Part shown: piece by piece, positions 31,963 through 59,985 of the stretch
Layout: each line of letters begins with the position of its first letter
How positions within the stretch are numbered: the stretch's first letter is position 1
Assembly: GCA_030054145.1 (NCBI GenBank)
Contig: JASGCK010000011.1
Coordinates: forward strand, 3,684-67,683
DNA: 64,000 nucleotides
Direction: 5' to 3'
Source of the DNA: Cytophagales bacterium
Lineage (GTDB): Bacteria > Pseudomonadota > Gammaproteobacteria > Burkholderiales > Burkholderiaceae_C
The notes under the pieces: model-generated
Database searches by the model: none
What the model was told of the DNA's origin: nothing
What the model saw: only the letters and a program-made list of their open reading frames with translations
Translations under genes and position numbers: made by a program

Positions 31963-32039
31963 AATTAATTGGGGACAGACCCTAATTAAATGATGTCGCC
32001 AAAGGCGAGCATTTAATTAGGGTCTGTCCCCAATTAATT
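31963..32039. repeat. REP family 1 inverted pair (perfect 30-bp arms)
   Basis: 'AATTAATTGGGGACAGACCCTAATTAAATG' (31963-31992) and its exact reverse complement (32010-32039) flank a 17-nt loop. The right arm contains the stop codon of the tyrosine transposase. Confidence 0.85.
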
Positions 32040-32723
32040 GCCGCGTGCAGGCCGTCCCGCGTTTTGTTTGATGACGCGTCTTGGCGTGGATGCTTGAATT
32101 TCGGCGGTAAAGGATTCGTCCCCTAGCGCCCAGCCTTTGAATGCGGATTCGGTAAGCAGTTTTTGTTGGTCTTGGCTAATACCTGCTAGCACCAACTCCC
32201 GATAAGCCCGTTCGCGCGAAAACGGCGTATTCCCCAGCGTCCACATCAGTTTGTGAGCAGTCACTAGCGGCTGCAGCTGCTGTCCGATATAGTGCCGATG
32301 CGTTGACCAAGCGTAATTGGCAGGGTCAGTTACCATGCCAGCGCGGACAGGATTGAGGTCAATATACGCCATGCACGCCAGTAAATAACGATCCGACTGC
32401 ACCACGGTCGATTTGTAACGCCCCTCCCACAAGGTGCCCGTATGCTTATGAAAGTAGTTGTAGCTTTGGGTATAGCGCTGCGCCAGTGACTGCATGAAGC
32501 CAGAGAGCGCTTGCTCCGTACTAGGCGTGAGCAGCAAGTGCGTGTGATTGTCCATCAGCACAAAAGCGTGAATAGCGACATCGAATTTCTGTGCGTACTC
32601 TGCCAGCCAAGCCAAATAAGCCTTGCGGTCTTCGTCGGTGTGAAAAATAACCTGCCGATTGTTCCCGCGCTGGATGATGTGATGCGGATAACCCGCAACA
32701 GAAAGCCGAGGTTGCCTAGCCAT
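32034..32723 (-). CDS. REP-associated tyrosine transposase (RAYT; IS200/IS605 Y1 family)
   Basis: 229 aa with 'YPHHIIQRGNNRQVIF', the HUH motif 'DNHTHLLL' and the catalytic Tyr region 'YIDLNPVRAGMV'. REP copies flank it on both sides. Confidence 0.85.
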   Translation of the reverse strand: MARQPRLSVAGYPHHIIQRGNNRQVIFHTDEDRKAYLAWLAEYAQKFDVAIHAFVLMDNHTHLLLTPSTEQALSGFMQSLAQRYTQSYNYFHKHTGTLWEGRYKSTVVQSDRYLLACMAYIDLNPVRAGMVTDPANYAWSTHRHYIGQQLQPLVTAHKLMWTLGNTPFSRERAYRELVLAGISQDQQKLLTESAFKGWALGDESFTAEIQASTPRRVIKQNAGRPARGN

Positions 32724-32733
32724 GCTTGCTCCA

Positions 32734-32760
32734 AATAATTAGGGTCTGTCCCCAATTATT
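32734..32760. repeat. REP family 1, single copy
   Basis: 'AATAATTAGGGTCTGTCCCCAATTATT' lies between the RAYT start and the aroB stop. The aroB stop codon lies inside it. Confidence 0.75.
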
Positions 32761-56215: not shown

Positions 56216-57358
56216 CTATATGTCCGTTCGGGCTGAGCTTGTCGAAGCCCCGCCTGTTAATTTTCCGCCAGTTAATTTGCCTCTCGACAGGCGCAGGGCG
56301 AACGGTTTGCGCATGGTGATTGTGTAAGCAATCAACGTATCGCAAGCCAAGAGCGAGAACAAGAGCAAACCTTGGAATACGCCTGTCACCGATTTAGGAA
56401 TGCCCATGCGTGATTGCGCCATTTCTCCGCCAATGTAGAAGAGACTCATGAGTAAGCTTGCCAGCACCACGCCCACAGGATGCAGTCTGCCCACATACGC
56501 CACGATGATGGCGGCAAAGCCATAGCCTGCGGGCACGTAGGGTGTTAGCTGACCAATAGGCCCTGCAACTTCTAATGCGCCCGCCAAGCCTGCGGCCCCG
56601 CCCGAAATCAGCAGTGCTGTCCATAATGCCGATCTGCTGGAGAAGCCCGCGTAGCGTGCGGCACGCGGCGCAAGTCCCCCGACGGTGAGCGCAAATCCCG
56701 CTTTGCTTCTAAACAAAAATAGCCATAAACCAGCCGCGCCCAAAAGACCCAGCACCATGCCGATGCTGACGCGCGAGCCTTTCATGAGCCTTGGAATTTG
56801 CGTCACCGCTTCAAAGCTTTTACTTTGCGGAAAGTTATAGCCTGCGGGGTCTTTGAATGGACCATTGACCATAAAATTAAGCGTAAACACGGCGATATAA
56901 ACCAGCATTAAGCTGACCAAAATTTCATTGGCATGAAAGCGATCTTTGAGCAGCGCGGTGATGCCCGCCCAGAACATTCCGCCCAAAATGCCCGCGAGCA
57001 AAAGGGCGGGAATGATCCAAGCGCCGGTCTCTTTGCTAGCGCCAAGGGCAACCCAGCTAGCAACGATAGCGCCCATCACAAACTGCCCCTCCGCGCCAAT
57101 GTTCCAAACACCCGAGCGAAAGCACACCGACAACCCCAGCGCAATGATGAGCAGCGGTGTTGCTTTGACGAGTAGCTCGCCAATGGCGTAACCCGATTTG
57201 ATAGGTTCCCAAAAAAACATCGTGAGACCGCGCACGGGGTCTTTGCCCAGCAAACTAAAAATCGTCAGCCCCACCAGCACCGTGATGACCAGTGCGAGCA
57301 GCGGCGACGCGTATGTCCAAACGCGAGAAGGTGCGGGGCGGGCGATGAGCTTAAGCAT
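56216..57358 (-). CDS. ABC transporter permease (BMP-type system, first permease)
   Basis: 380 aa, polytopic. The last roughly 28 codons ('KPFALRLSRGKLTGGKLTGGASTSSARTDI') and the stop are encoded by the REP family 2 element. Confidence 0.87.
   Translation of the reverse strand: MLKLIARPAPSRVWTYASPLLALVITVLVGLTIFSLLGKDPVRGLTMFFWEPIKSGYAIGELLVKATPLLIIALGLSVCFRSGVWNIGAEGQFVMGAIVASWVALGASKETGAWIIPALLLAGILGGMFWAGITALLKDRFHANEILVSLMLVYIAVFTLNFMVNGPFKDPAGYNFPQSKSFEAVTQIPRLMKGSRVSIGMVLGLLGAAGLWLFLFRSKAGFALTVGGLAPRAARYAGFSSRSALWTALLISGGAAGLAGALEVAGPIGQLTPYVPAGYGFAAIIVAYVGRLHPVGVVLASLLMSLFYIGGEMAQSRMGIPKSVTGVFQGLLLFSLLACDTLIAYTITMRKPFALRLSRGKLTGGKLTGGASTSSARTDI
56223..56305. repeat. REP family 2 hairpin
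   Basis: 'TCCGTTCGGGCTGAGCTTGTCGAAGCCCC' ... 'CTCGACAGGCGCAGGGCGAACGG'. The loop holds an internal direct repeat (TTAATTTTCCGCCAGTTAATTTGCC). Confidence 0.72.
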
Positions 57359-58967
57359 TTGTGAGGTCGTTGCCGTGGATTCCCGCCTTCGCGGGAATGA
57401 CAGGTGTGGTGGCGGGAATGACAGGTGTGGTAGCGGGAATGACAGGTGTGGTGGCGGGAATGACAGGTGCGGTAGCGGGGATGACGGGTGTGGTGGCGGG
57501 AATGACAGGGGGTGCTTCCCAAAGTCCGCTCATCCACTCGCCCACCAAGCTGGGCGTGGCCTCTAGGGCACTCATGCTGGGTGAGAGGCGGCCTTTGGCA
57601 ATTACGTGCAAGCGGTCGCAAACTTCAAATAGTTCGTCCAACTCGTCGCTGATAACCAGCACGGCACAGCCTTTGGCACGCAGCGCAAGTAACTCGCCTC
57701 GGATCTGCGCTGCCGCGCCTACATCGACTCCCCAAGTTGGCTGCGCGACCACGAGCACTTGGGGGTTGGCATCCATTTCGCGACCCACAATAAATTTTTG
57801 CAAATTACCGCCTGAGAGCGACTGAGCCAAAGCCGCGCTGCCTTTGCCTGATCCTGCTTTGACGTTGAAGGCGTGGATGATGCGCGTGGCTTGTTCATGC
57901 AACTTTTTAGGCGCAATCCACTCCATGCCCAAGCGCCGCGTAATGGCTTCGCTCCGCGTGAGTAGCAAGTTATCGGCCAGACTCATAGACGGCACTGCGC
58001 CGCAGCCGAGGCGCTCTTCGGGCACGATATGCAGTTTGTACGTACCACTAAATTGGCGTGTTGAAATGGCCGCCAATAATTCCTTTTGTCCATTGCCCGA
58101 TACGCCAGCAATGCCCACAACTTCACCTGCCCGCACATCAAGGTTGATCGCATTTAAATCGATACCAAATGGGTCGGACTTTGGCTCAGAGAAATGCTGG
58201 ATGACTAGGCGCGATTCGCCCGTTTGCATTGCATCACGCGCCAGCGCCCGAGGCTCAAAGCCAATCATCATGCGGGCTAGCGAGGCATTGGTCTGGGCGC
58301 TTGGCACGCATTCGCCCGTTACACGTCCTGCACGTAGCACCGTACAAGCGTCGCACAAAGCGCGGATTTCATCTAGCTTGTGACTGATGTACAAAATCGC
58401 ACAGCCCTCGCTCGCCAGCTTTCGCAGCACAATAAATAATTTCTCAACCGCTTGCGGAGTCAGCACCGATGTGGGCTCATCCAAAATCAACAGCTTGGGA
58501 TTGGTCAGCAAGGCGCGGATGATCTCCACGCGTTGCCGCTCGCCCACCGCCAGCGTATGCACGGGGCGTAGCGGATCAATGTCCAAGCCATACACGGCGG
58601 CCTTTTGCGTGATTTGCGCCGTTACGTCTTTGAGGCTCAGCGACTGGTCGAGTCCCAGCCAAACGTTCTCGGCAACCGATAACGTATCAAACAAACTGAA
58701 ATGCTGAAACACCATGCTAATGCCAAGCGAGCGAGCCGCTTGCGGATTCGCAATTTGCACCGCGTTGCCATCAAATAAAACTTGACCACGGTCTGGTTTT
58801 ACCGCGCCATAAATAATTTTCATCAACGTCGATTTACCCGCACCGTTCTCGCCCAGTACCGCGTGAATGCTGCCAGCGGCAACGGCAAGCGAGATGTCGT
58901 CGTTGGCCAGCACAGCAGGGTAGCGCTTGGTGATGGTTTGCAGGACGAGGCGGGCTGGGGAGGTCAT
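57351..58967 (-). CDS. ABC transporter ATP-binding protein, duplicated NBD (BMP/sugar type)
   Basis: 538 aa. NBD1 has 'GENGAGKST' and 'LILDEPTS'. NBD2 has 'GVSGNGQKEL', 'LSGGNLQKF' and 'LVVAQPTWGVD'. The C-terminal roughly 50 aa are the repeat-encoded (PVIPATT)n tail. Confidence 0.92.
   Translation of the reverse strand: MTSPARLVLQTITKRYPAVLANDDISLAVAAGSIHAVLGENGAGKSTLMKIIYGAVKPDRGQVLFDGNAVQIANPQAARSLGISMVFQHFSLFDTLSVAENVWLGLDQSLSLKDVTAQITQKAAVYGLDIDPLRPVHTLAVGERQRVEIIRALLTNPKLLILDEPTSVLTPQAVEKLFIVLRKLASEGCAILYISHKLDEIRALCDACTVLRAGRVTGECVPSAQTNASLARMMIGFEPRALARDAMQTGESRLVIQHFSEPKSDPFGIDLNAINLDVRAGEVVGIAGVSGNGQKELLAAISTRQFSGTYKLHIVPEERLGCGAVPSMSLADNLLLTRSEAITRRLGMEWIAPKKLHEQATRIIHAFNVKAGSGKGSAALAQSLSGGNLQKFIVGREMDANPQVLVVAQPTWGVDVGAAAQIRGELLALRAKGCAVLVISDELDELFEVCDRLHVIAKGRLSPSMSALEATPSLVGEWMSGLWEAPPVIPATTPVIPATAPVIPATTPVIPATTPVIPATTPVIPAKAGIHGNDLTNA
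57391..57511. repeat. 21-bp tandem repeat, about 5.7 copies, in-frame within the ATPase 3' end
   Basis: Units of GCGGGAATGACAGGTGTGGTG start at 57391, 57412, 57433, 57454, 57475 and 57496 with a few substitutions. A palindrome ATTCCCGC-cttc-GCGGGAAT (57379-57398) precedes them. Confidence 0.9.
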
Positions 58968-59124
58968 TGGAATAATCGTAACATGAGAGCCAAGGGATAC
59001 TGTGATTGCCTGCCACTTCGGTTGGTTGTTGCAAGTGGCGGATAACGCAGAGCCGCCTCGCCGCCTCGCCGCATCGCTCTTGCTGGGCGAGTGGCGCGCA
59101 ATTGTTTATTGTGGATTAAGGGCT

Positions 59125-59224
59125 CTCTGCATAATCCGTTCGCCCTGAGCTTGTCGAAGGGTAAGTGTTTGATTTGCTTTGGCTTCGACAGGCTCAGCCC
59201 GAACGGAAATGAAGTTATGCAGAG
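59125..59224. repeat. REP family 2 hairpin with extended outer arms
   Basis: 'CTCTGCATAATCCGTTCGCCCTGAGCTTGTCGAAGGG' ... 'CTTCGACAGGCTCAGCCCGAACGGAAATGAAGTTATGCAGAG', located upstream of the ABC operon and directly after the DUF3025 stop. Confidence 0.75.
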
Positions 59225-59229
59225 TGTCC

Positions 59230-59985
59230 TTAAGCATTTTTTGGACGAAAAACTTGTTGGTCTTCATAAAACGCCGTGTCTGCGTTTTCTGCGCACCAAT
59301 TGGGTACGCCCATAACTGGCAAGGGTGTGAAGGGCTTGGCGGCCATCAACTCGGACGAGAGCAGCGCGGCAATTGCCGCATCGTTTGCGGCGTGCATGGG
59401 TGCTGGCGGACAAAATAAATGCGCCGTGATGGCCTTGCGCGGGGCAGTTAATTTTTCTAATAGGGCATGACCAAAAATGACGACTTGCGCCTGCGCCCAA
59501 AGTGCCCGATGCTGTATGAATACAGCGTTCCAATCTTTATTTTGGATAGCTTTCAGCAGCGATGATGGGCTGTTGGGTTCGATTAAAAACGCCGCGTTTT
59601 CGTCAAATAAGGTGAGTGCGTCGCGCAGCTTGCCTCGATGCTGCGTCACGCCTGCCGCCTCAATGGCGGCTGCTTGCAATGCGTTTAATCGGGTTTTGAT
59701 TTTTGGAAAGTGCAGCCACATCAAACCATTAAAAAAATCGTGCAAATTGTTGCGTGTGGGCACGCTTTTGGTTTGCCAAATAAAGGACTCGTAAGCGGCC
59801 ACGCCTTGGGCTTTTTCTGGCGCGACAAAGCGCACGGGGCAGGCGATTTGTGGGTTTGCAACCAGTGCATGATTCAAAGCCGCATGGACTGGACTTCCCA
59901 GGGCAATTTGCTCCGCGAGCCTTATTCCTATTGGCTTGTAGGGCTTTAGCCACGGCGCACTCCAATTGATTAAATGAAACGCCAC
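59230..59985 (-). CDS. DUF3025-like protein
   Basis: '[11 protein letters not shown]' and '[18 protein letters not shown]' match my recollection of DUF3025, which commonly follows pyrC in betaproteobacteria. The start is uncertain: GTG 59985, or the longest ORF at 60057, which would overlap pyrC by 88 nt. Confidence 0.65.

What the first reader, a model, noticed from the sequence alone, without database searches (positions are those of the whole stretch)
57361..57511. In-frame 21-bp tandem repeat gives an ABC ATPase a (PVIPATT)n tail and overlaps the next gene's start region
About 5.7 head-to-tail copies of GCGGGAATGACAGGTGTGGTG lie next to the palindrome ATTCCCGCcttcGCGGGAAT, a third REP type that gives the 'IPAFAGMT / VIPAKAGI' peptides. 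On the coding (-) strand they add 'PPVIPATTPVIPATAPVIPATTPVIPATTPVIPATTPVIPAKAGIHGNDLTNA' to the end of the second NBD. The unit is 7 codons, so copy-number change preserves the frame. The repeat lies immediately upstream of, and the ATPase ORF overlaps by 8 nt, the permease start (57358). Copy number could therefore alter both the ATPase tail and the translational coupling or RBS context of the permease. This looks like a REP half-site expanded into a coding minisatellite.
Basis: seen in the sequence. Interest (0 to 1): 0.6.

Follow-up and report, generated by a model that had tools for sequence, protein, structure and literature searches.

The report
Hairpin repeat array translated as ATPase tail
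A common "selfish" hairpin repeat (a REP element of the known CGTC-1/dRS3 type), plus a small tandem array grown from half of it, has landed in the floppy, naturally variable tail of a transporter ATPase and is read through as a (PVIPATT)n peptide; this is real but is an ordinary, already described kind of event.

Summary
A 21-bp tandem array with 5.7 copies (57391-57509) abuts the palindrome ATTCCCGC-CTTC-GCGGGAAT (57379-57398). The ABC ATPase ORF (57351-58967, minus strand) reads through both, giving residues 486-538. Its stop overlaps the permease ATG by 8 nt.

The palindrome is one of about 61 genome copies of a CGTC-1 REP, the family of Neisseria dRS3 and Rickettsia RPE-6. Each array unit is the tag plus the 5' arm plus 9 nt.

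The conserved ATPase core ends at GEWMSGLW in more than 100 orthologues examined. What follows is always a non-conserved tail of 2-50 residues. None carries PVIPATT. The 8-nt (or 14-nt) overlap is ancestral, not made by the repeat.

A sister species (G008) has one copy of the same REP at the same junction, in the opposite orientation and without an array. Other genera carry unrelated palindromes in this tail. AlphaFold2 predicts residues 486-538 as coil (pLDDT 30-37).

This genome also has REP-plus-array insertions in frame in at least four other genes.

Verdict: a new member of a known kind, of low to moderate interest.

The parts
57351..58967 (-). ABC transporter ATP-binding protein with two nucleotide-binding domains, 538 aa, of a BMP/PnrA-type uptake system. 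The conserved core is residues 1-485.
   Evidence: ORF. Pfam ABC_tran matches in 2 stretches. The nearest NCBIfam model is the 'putative B6 ABC transporter ATP-binding protein', at 380 bits against a cut-off of 670, so no equivalog is assigned. Orthologues are 65-86% identical.
57354..57512 (-). REP/array-encoded C-terminal tail, residues 486-538: PPVIPATT PVIPATA PVIPATT PVIPATT PVIPATT PVIPAKAGIH GNDLTNA.
   Evidence: Absent from all orthologues. AlphaFold2 gives pLDDT below 50 for 486-538 with no secondary structure.
57391..57509 (.). Tandem array, 5.7 x 21 bp. On the coding strand each unit is CACCACACC + TGTC (tag) + ATTCCCGC (5' arm). The unit nearest the REP shares its arm with the palindrome.
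   Evidence: TRF. Unit matches. Codon layout. Pattern hits.
57375..57402 (-). Complete CGTC-1 REP. On the coding strand it reads TGTC-ATTCCCGC-GAAG-GCGGGAAT-CCAC (tag, 8-bp stem, 4-nt loop, tail). The RNA hairpin is -13.7 kcal/mol.
   Evidence: Sequence. Palindrome match. Family statistics over 61 genome copies. Hairpin energy. Family definition from PMC3733652.
57351..57358 (-). 8-nt overlap of the ATPase stop (TAA 57351-57353) with the permease start (ATG 57356-57358). This is the ancestral translational-coupling junction.
   Evidence: The same 8-nt overlap occurs in 7 of 8 same-genus genomes, and 8 or 14 nt in most of 80 family loci.
56216..57358 (-). Permease 1 of the same transporter. Its own last ~28 residues and stop codon come from a second, unrelated REP family (56216-56310).
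   Evidence: ORF. NCBIfam permease hit. Orthologues end 10-25 residues after ...LIAY, and their stop overlaps the permease 2 start.

Best explanation
A CGTC-1-type REP hairpin inserted into the C-terminal tail of the ATPase gene, just upstream of the overlapping stop/start junction with the permease gene. CGTC-1 is the family of Neisseria dRS3 and Rickettsia RPE-6. The element has about 61 copies in this 2.64-Mb Comamonadaceae genome. A 21-nt segment was then amplified locally into about 6 tandem copies. That segment holds the tag, the 5' arm and 9 nt of upstream flank. The mechanism of amplification is inferred, most likely slippage or template switching at the hairpin. Five of the six reading frames of the element have no stop codon, and the unit is 7 codons long. 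The ribosome therefore reads straight through to the original stop and adds 53 residues, (PVIPATT)n-PVIPAKAGIH-GNDLTNA, after the last helix of the second nucleotide-binding domain. This tail segment is non-conserved and variable in length in every orthologue, and it is predicted to be disordered. The insertion is therefore tolerated and is most likely neutral or nearly so. There is no intergenic DNA at this junction, so the variable tail is the only place a REP can sit there without harm. Shown here: the anatomy, the family membership, the absence from orthologues, the ancestral overlap and the predicted disorder. Inferred: near-neutrality, and the way the array arose.
For: Array and palindrome. 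The palindrome is dispersed at 61 loci, with GTC tag in 50/61, CCA tail in 43/61, an 8-bp stem and 4-nt loops GAAG/GCAG. These match the published CGTC-1 definition (PMC3733652). Orthologue cores end at GEWMSGLW and are followed by unrelated tails of 2-50 aa ending ..HA/..HAQA, with an 8- or 14-nt overlap. G008 has a single REP at the same junction in the opposite orientation and without an array. Ramlibacter and Caenimonas tails carry a different palindrome, CCCTCTCCC-N3-GGGAGAGGG. P0048 and P0034 tails look REP-derived too. The same REP-plus-array architecture sits in frame in BT1, Ldh_2, TPR-GT41 and AddB-like genes of this genome. All 5 coding arrays have unit lengths that are multiples of 3, against 2 of 6 non-coding arrays (Fisher p = 0.045). 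AF2 shows the last helix at 472-479 and residues 486-538 as coil with pLDDT 30-37. No Rfam family, promoter-like or terminator-like site lies at the junction. The mRNA is not unusually structured (z = +0.74).
Against: Four of the five substitutions among the units fall on third codon positions and are synonymous (p = 0.045, or about 0.11 if two of them are one duplicated event). This could hint at selection on the peptide. No expression, proteomic or population data could be obtained, so near-neutrality is an inference. The tandem 'tag + arm' arrays were found only in this genome among 41 relatives. A simple, universal slippage process does not explain that.
Confidence: 0.8

Rival explanations
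1. The array is a functional contingency or VNTR locus. Changes in copy number would tune the ATPase, through a Pro-rich spacer or interaction tail, or tune the expression of the downstream permease through translational coupling.
For: The in-frame 21-nt unit allows length change without frameshift. Substitutions among units are mostly synonymous. The permease has no Shine-Dalgarno-like motif within 22 nt of its AUG, so it probably depends on coupling to ATPase translation.
Against: No relative has the tail, so it is recent and dispensable. The units are imperfect (89% matches), which lowers slippage rates. The array ends 33 nt from the ATG, separated from it by the rest of the REP and 16 nt of unique sequence. 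Steps of 21 nt leave the stop/start overlap unchanged. The tail is predicted to be disordered. The same kind of insertion is scattered over unrelated genes, which fits selfish spread better than locus-specific function.
Confidence: 0.08
2. The copy number, or the array itself, is an assembly artefact. It could be a collapse or expansion of a short repeat in a draft assembly of 26 contigs.
For: It is a draft genome.
Against: The whole array plus REP is only about 140 bp, within the span of a single short read. Units 2, 4 and 5 carry private substitutions that anchor their order. A second array of the same build exists at C25:6518-6654, and five other arrays elsewhere. The ORF stays open and in frame to the ancestral stop.
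Confidence: 0.05
3. The REP at this junction is a single old insertion shared with G008 that was later inverted in one lineage, not two independent insertions. Only the array would then be specific to this genome.
For: Same REP family and same junction in two species of one genus. The ATPase tree does not separate them, since both fall in an unresolved polytomy.
Against: The tag, loop and tail are all inverted together and the flanks differ. G008 reads GGC|GTGG..GAC|GAGGCTTGAAAATG and has lost the overlap. G000 reads ..CACC|TGTC..CCAC|GGCAACG.. and has kept it. Six other species of the genus and 21 further genus-level proteins have no REP there. One old insertion would need many losses.
Confidence: 0.07

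Closest known systems
CGTC-1 family of CGTC-tagged REPs (Di Nocera, De Gregorio & Rocco 2013, BMC Genomics 14:522, PMC3733652). The paper equates it with Neisseria dRS3 and Rickettsia conorii RPE-6.
   Same: It has the unpaired (C/T)GTC tag, an 8-bp stem beginning AT, a 4-nt loop and a CCA tail. It is dispersed in tens of copies and has no flanking dedicated transposase. The paper documents intragenic copies, with about 10% at ORF ends, and REP clusters that encode 43-82 aa.
   Different: Here only half of the hairpin (tag plus 5' arm) with 9 nt of flank is reiterated, rather than whole REPs or head-to-head dimers. The paper calls grouped CGTC elements rare. The host is a Comamonadaceae genome.
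Rickettsia palindromic elements (RPE) inserted in frame in protein-coding genes (Ogata et al. 2000, cited from my own knowledge and referred to in PMC3733652).
   Same: Selfish palindromic DNA is translated as an extra peptide segment in a tolerant part of an otherwise intact protein. Many genes in one genome are affected.
   Different: RPE-1 elements are 100-150 bp single units. The element here is a 27-nt hairpin plus a minisatellite of half-units, located at the extreme C-terminus.
E. coli REP/BIME elements at operon junctions, such as malE-malF (established knowledge, not tested here).
   Same: A stable GC-rich hairpin lies between two cistrons of an ABC-transporter operon. In principle it could stabilise upstream mRNA or affect ribosomes close to a stop codon.
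   Different: Those are extragenic GTAG-type REPs associated with a RAYT. This one lies inside the coding sequence, belongs to the CGTC type, and no effect on RNA has been shown.

Membership tests
CGTC-1 REP (PMC3733652) | Unpaired terminal tetranucleotide CGTC, with TGTC/CCTC variants allowed | tested here: met
   Tag xGTC in 50 of 61 genome copies (CGTC 23, TGTC 20). This copy has TGTC.
CGTC-1 REP (PMC3733652) | 8-bp stem with A-T in first and second positions | tested here: met
   ATTCCCGC/GCGGGAAT, a perfect 8 bp. The hairpin is -13.7 kcal/mol.
CGTC-1 REP (PMC3733652) | 4-nt loop of a few major types | tested here: met
   Loops GAAG 26, GCAG 19, GTAG 5 of 61.
CGTC-1 REP (PMC3733652) | Short unpaired 3' tail fitting CCA | tested here: met
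   CCA in 43 of 61 copies. This copy has CCAC.
CGTC-1 REP (PMC3733652) | Multi-copy, dispersed, and not flanking a dedicated tyrosine transposase | tested here: met
   61 loci on 20 contigs. The only Y1_Tnp gene of the genome (window 32034-32723) is flanked by a different long inverted repeat.
CGTC-1 REP (PMC3733652) | Predominant head-to-head dimers | not tested
   Dimer orientation was not tallied. A few close pairs were seen (C2:8600-8665, C17:8447-8702).
In-frame palindromic insertion of the Rickettsia RPE kind | The element lies inside an otherwise intact, conserved ORF, in frame, in a structurally tolerant segment | tested here: met
   The ORF is open to the ancestral stop. The site is a hypervariable tail in all orthologues. 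AF2 predicts a disordered tail.
In-frame palindromic insertion of the Rickettsia RPE kind | The host protein remains functional and the extra peptide is made | not testable with these tools
   No expression or proteomic data were available.
VNTR / contingency locus | Copy number differs among strains or within a population | not testable with these tools
The exact protein is seen on one contig only and the next hit is 86% identical. Two metagenome scans were empty.
BMP/PnrA-type ABC uptake transporter | Fused two-NBD ATPase, two permeases and a Bmp-family binding protein in one operon | tested here: met
   ABC_tran x2, Bmp PF02608 (1e-57) and two permease hits. All NCBIfam 'B6 transporter' equivalog scores are far below their cut-offs, so the substrate is left open.

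The most novel reading that the evidence does not exclude
This one genome, alone among 41 relatives sampled, may have or have recently had an active process that amplifies 'tag + 5' arm' half-REPs into tandem arrays next to CGTC-1 hairpins. There are at least 8 such loci. Five of them are translated inside intact genes: the ABC ATPase, a BT1 transporter, an Ldh_2 dehydrogenase, a TPR-GT41 protein and an AddB-like nuclease. All five have unit lengths that are multiples of 3. If so, the genome would be a natural system for working out how the 'orphan' CGTC REPs, which have no known transposase, are nicked, copied and spread, and how they create new peptide repeats in proteins.
Probability: 0.15. 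Interest if true: 0.55.

Novelty: new member of a known kind. Interest (0 to 1): 0.25.

Why it matters
The locus is a clean, well-controlled example of how selfish hairpin repeats enter coding sequence. In a tightly coupled operon with overlapping stop and start codons there is no intergenic DNA. The only harmless landing place is therefore the disordered, hypervariable tail of the upstream protein. Unrelated REP families have used this same tail in different genera.

For annotation, it explains the odd Pro-rich tail and the spurious 'IPAFAGMT / GNDRCGG' ORFs on the opposite strand.

It does not reveal a new mechanism. The only open question of wider interest is how half-hairpin arrays arise, and why they are found in this genome alone among those sampled.

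Tried and rejected

2. Same-species alleles. The protein search found the exact protein on one contig only, with the next hit at 86% identity. A metagenome scan for two consecutive units was empty, as was a scan for the unique ATPase sequence just upstream of the array.

3. Association with a RAYT. The genome's single Y1 transposase (window 32034-32723) is flanked by a different long palindrome, not by CGTC-1 copies. The idea that this array is a product of a cognate flanking RAYT was dropped.

4. Unusual RNA structure or a regulatory RNA. The mRNA fold has z = +0.74. No Rfam hit lies at the junction; the two weak hits at 59123-59288 lie in another REP. There is no promoter- or terminator-like site.

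5. Tree test of one versus two REP insertions in G000 and G008. The result is an unresolved polytomy, so the test is uninformative.

6. Selection on the peptide. Four of five unit substitutions are synonymous, but p is only 0.045 (about 0.11 if two of them are one event), which is too few events to conclude anything.

7. Half-REP arrays in relatives. None of 40 relatives has three or more tandem units at 2 or fewer mismatches. Looser arrays were not searched for.

Full report
**1. Observation**

Tandem Repeats Finder reports one array at 57391-57509. It has period 21, 5.7 copies, 89% matches, no indels, score 203 and consensus GCGGGAATGACAGGTGTGGTG. Five full units match the consensus with at most 2 mismatches, and 100 shuffles gave none. 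The array begins inside the perfect palindrome ATTCCCGC-CTTC-GCGGGAAT at 57379-57398, the only copy in the window.

On the minus strand, a 538-aa ORF (57351-58967) reads through the array and the palindrome. It ends ...GEWMSGLWEA-PPVIPATT-PVIPATA-PVIPATT-PVIPATT-PVIPATT-PVIPAKAGIH-GNDLTNA*. Its TAA (57351-57353) overlaps the ATG (57356-57358) of the next ORF by 8 nt.

**2. The genes**

- The ORF is a two-domain ABC ATPase (Pfam ABC_tran, two stretches).
- Two permeases and a Bmp/PnrA-type binding protein (PF02608, 1e-57) follow it on the same strand.
- NCBIfam's nearest models are the 'putative B6 ABC transporter' set, but every score is far below its cut-off (for example 380 against 670 bits). 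I leave the substrate open.
- The plus-strand ORFs over the array (AGMTGVV..., GNDRCGG...) are by-products of a repeat that is open in five of six frames (sequence reading).

**3. What the palindrome is**

The genome is 2.64 Mb in 26 contigs, and the window is C7:3684-67683. It holds 61 loci of ATTCCCGC-N4-GCGGGAAT at one mismatch or fewer. When each copy is oriented by its flanks:

- 50 of 61 carry an xGTC tag (CGTC 23, TGTC 20).
- 43 of 61 carry a CCA tail.
- The loops are GAAG (26), GCAG (19) or GTAG (5).

This matches the published definition of the CGTC-1 family of CGTC-tagged REPs: CGTC/TGTC tag, 8-bp stem starting AT, 4-nt loop, CCA tail and no dedicated transposase. The authors equate the family with Neisseria dRS3 and Rickettsia RPE-6 (PMC3733652).

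The genome's only Y1 (RAYT-type) transposase gene lies in this window at 32034-32723. It is flanked by a different long inverted repeat, not by CGTC-1 copies.

On the ATPase coding strand the element reads TGTC-ATTCCCGC-GAAG-GCGGGAAT-CCAC. Each array unit reads CACCACACC-TGTC-ATTCCCGC, that is, tag plus 5' arm plus 9 nt.

**4. Is the tail an addition?**

Yes. In 80 orthologous loci from Comamonadaceae the alignment to the query stops at residues 483-487. Every protein continues after IGEWMSGLW with an unrelated tail of 3-45 residues, usually ending HA or HAQA.

Eight genomes of the same genus give these tails: NV, HA, DSAHV, STSHA, YAKGAETHV, DAKEAEAHV, HSSALVDHHV and, in G008, EGVDSRLRGNDEA. 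Twenty-two further genus-level proteins from the large protein collection behave the same way. None has PVIPATT.

AlphaFold2, run with a 34-sequence alignment, places the last helix at 472-479. It gives residues 486-538 no secondary structure and pLDDT 30-37. The whole model has mean pLDDT 73 and pTM 0.71.

**5. The overlap**

The 8-nt overlap (xATGyTTAA) is present in 7 of the 8 same-genus genomes. An overlap of 8 or 14 nt is present in most of the 80 family loci. It is ancestral. The terminal ..NA of this protein is the counterpart of the usual ..HA/..HV, which is dictated by the overlapping ATG.

The array does not reach the permease's initiation region. Between the array proper and the ATG lie the loop, the 3' arm and the CCAC tail of the REP, plus 16 nt of unique sequence. 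No Shine-Dalgarno-like motif occurs in the 22 nt before the AUG. Some relatives lack one as well, so reinitiation coupling is the likely mode (inference). Copy-number steps of 21 nt would leave the frame, the stop and the overlap unchanged.

Other checks at the junction:

- The mRNA over the array folds no better than shuffles (z = +0.74).
- The REP hairpin itself is -13.7 kcal/mol.
- There is no Rfam family and no promoter- or terminator-like site.

The suggestion that copy number alters RBS context or coupling therefore has no support in the anatomy.

**6. A recurrent landing site**

G008 has one CGTC-1 REP at the same junction, with three differences: it has the opposite orientation (GTGG-ATTCCCGCCTTCGCGGGAAT-GAC on the coding strand, read as VDSRLRGND), it has no array, and it has lost the overlap (TGAAAATG). 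Its flanks also differ from those in G000, and all other genus members lack a REP there. I therefore read these as two independent insertions. The ATPase tree is unresolved and cannot prove this.

In Ramlibacter and Caenimonas the same tail carries a different palindrome, CCCTCTCCC-N3-GGGAGAGGG, read as ..LSQREREK... Tails of P0048 and P0034 also look REP-derived.

In this genome the next junction of the operon is also invaded. A second REP family supplies the last ~28 residues and the stop of permease 1 (56216-56310). In orthologues the permease 1 stop overlaps the permease 2 start. This confirms an earlier first-stage note on the genome.

The picture is that tightly coupled junctions have no spare DNA, and REPs survive there only inside the disposable tail of the upstream protein.

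**7. Not a one-off in this genome**

REP-plus-array structures of the same build occur at seven or more other loci. Four lie in frame inside otherwise intact genes:

- A BT1-family transporter (C17:91844-93520), with 18-nt units read as ..AVIPxx...
- An Ldh_2 dehydrogenase whose Pfam domain is split into two stretches (C18:103248-104456).
- A TPR-GT41 protein (C26:245416-247494).
- An AddB-like protein (C10:23969-26770).

All five coding arrays have unit lengths divisible by three (21, 18, 18, 18, 9). Non-coding arrays have units of 19, 26, 67, 106, 21 and 30 (Fisher p = 0.045). This is the expected filter of selection on reading frame.

Among 40 relatives no other genome has three or more tandem tag+arm units at 2 or fewer mismatches. 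Why this genome alone does is unexplained.

**8. What could not be tested**

- The exact protein occurs on one contig in the 5.8-billion-cluster collection, and the next relative is 86% identical.
- Two metagenome scans were empty.
- Private substitutions in units 2, 4 and 5, and a total length of about 140 bp, make collapse unlikely but do not exclude it.
- Four of five substitutions among units are synonymous third-position changes (p = 0.045, or about 0.11 if two are one duplicated event). This is too few to claim selection on the peptide.

**9. Comparison with what is known, and verdict**

Intragenic GTAG and CGTC REPs are described in PMC3733652, including copies at ORF ends and clusters that encode 43-82 residues. 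Rickettsia RPEs are the classic case. Other follow-ups in this scan filed similar in-frame hairpins under the same family. I treat those as leads, not evidence.

The present case passes every CGTC-1 feature I could test. Its one unusual trait is that half-hairpins, rather than whole REPs or dimers, are reiterated.

I rate it a new member of a known kind, with interest 0.25. My confidence in the 'passively translated, near-neutral selfish insertion' reading is about 0.8.

Noticed in passing
window 56216-56310: The last ~28 residues (..KPFALRLSRGKLTGGKLTGGASTSSARTDI*) and the stop codon of permease 1 come from a second REP family (CCGTTCGCCCTG...CAGCCCGAACGG) inserted between the two permease genes. 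In orthologues the permease 1 stop overlaps the permease 2 start.
   Followed up: yes
G000 C25:6430-6665 (outside the window): A twin array: two CGTC-1 palindromes followed by 6.5 x 21-bp half-REP units (GCGCGGGAATGACTAAATTGG). The last unit appears to supply the ATG of a lipoprotein gene (MAKVCVLLFIVSLVGC..., LolB-like by eye). Several in-frame ATGs lie in the upstream units.
   Followed up: partly
G000 C17:91844-93520; C18:103248-104456 (-); C26:245416-247494; C10:23969-26770: CGTC-1 REPs with short tandem arrays (18-, 18-, 18- and 9-nt units) lie in frame inside a BT1 transporter, an Ldh_2 dehydrogenase (Pfam domain split in two), a TPR-GT41 glycosyltransferase and an AddB-like nuclease. 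The AddB-like ORF also holds translated copies of another REP family (..LRQAQDERS.. repeats).
   Followed up: partly
L093 (G008:C14:27000-28600): A sister species carries a single CGTC-1 REP at the same ATPase/permease junction, in the opposite orientation (read as VDSRLRGND). There the ancestral 8-nt overlap is replaced by a 2-nt spacer (TGAAAATG).
   Followed up: yes
L011, L020, L033 (Ramlibacter, Caenimonas), ATPase tail region: The same hypervariable ATPase tail holds a different palindrome (CCCTCTCCC-N3-GGGAGAGGG, read as ..LSQREREK..). L020 has an additional palindrome, GAAAAAGCGCAAGCGCTTTTTC.
   Followed up: partly
window 31963-32760: The genome's only Y1/RAYT-type transposase gene (32034-32723, minus strand) lies between gltB and aroB. 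On its downstream side it is flanked by a long perfect inverted repeat (ATTAATTGGGGACAGACCCTAATTAAATG...), a 'TIRtron'-like arrangement unrelated to the CGTC-1 REPs.
   Followed up: partly
G000 C24:168671-172901; C22:8630-9817; C10:62831-64521 and C2:109-810: TRF shows regular arrays with periods of 61-67 bp and constant repeats (GTCGCTCCCCGCGTGGGGGCGTGGATTGAAAC; GGTTCCCCCGCGTGAGCGGGGATAGGCCC; GTTCCAAGGCTCTGTTGACGGCTTACTTGATAGACT). They look like up to three CRISPR arrays, two of them at contig ends.
   Followed up: no
ATPase residues ~303-312 (window about 58030-58060): Just after the second Walker A motif (..AISTRQF..), genus relatives differ by an indel of 0-20 residues (for example NARHYEHPSDKNTNHR). 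This is a second length-variable loop of the protein. This genome has the short form.
   Followed up: no
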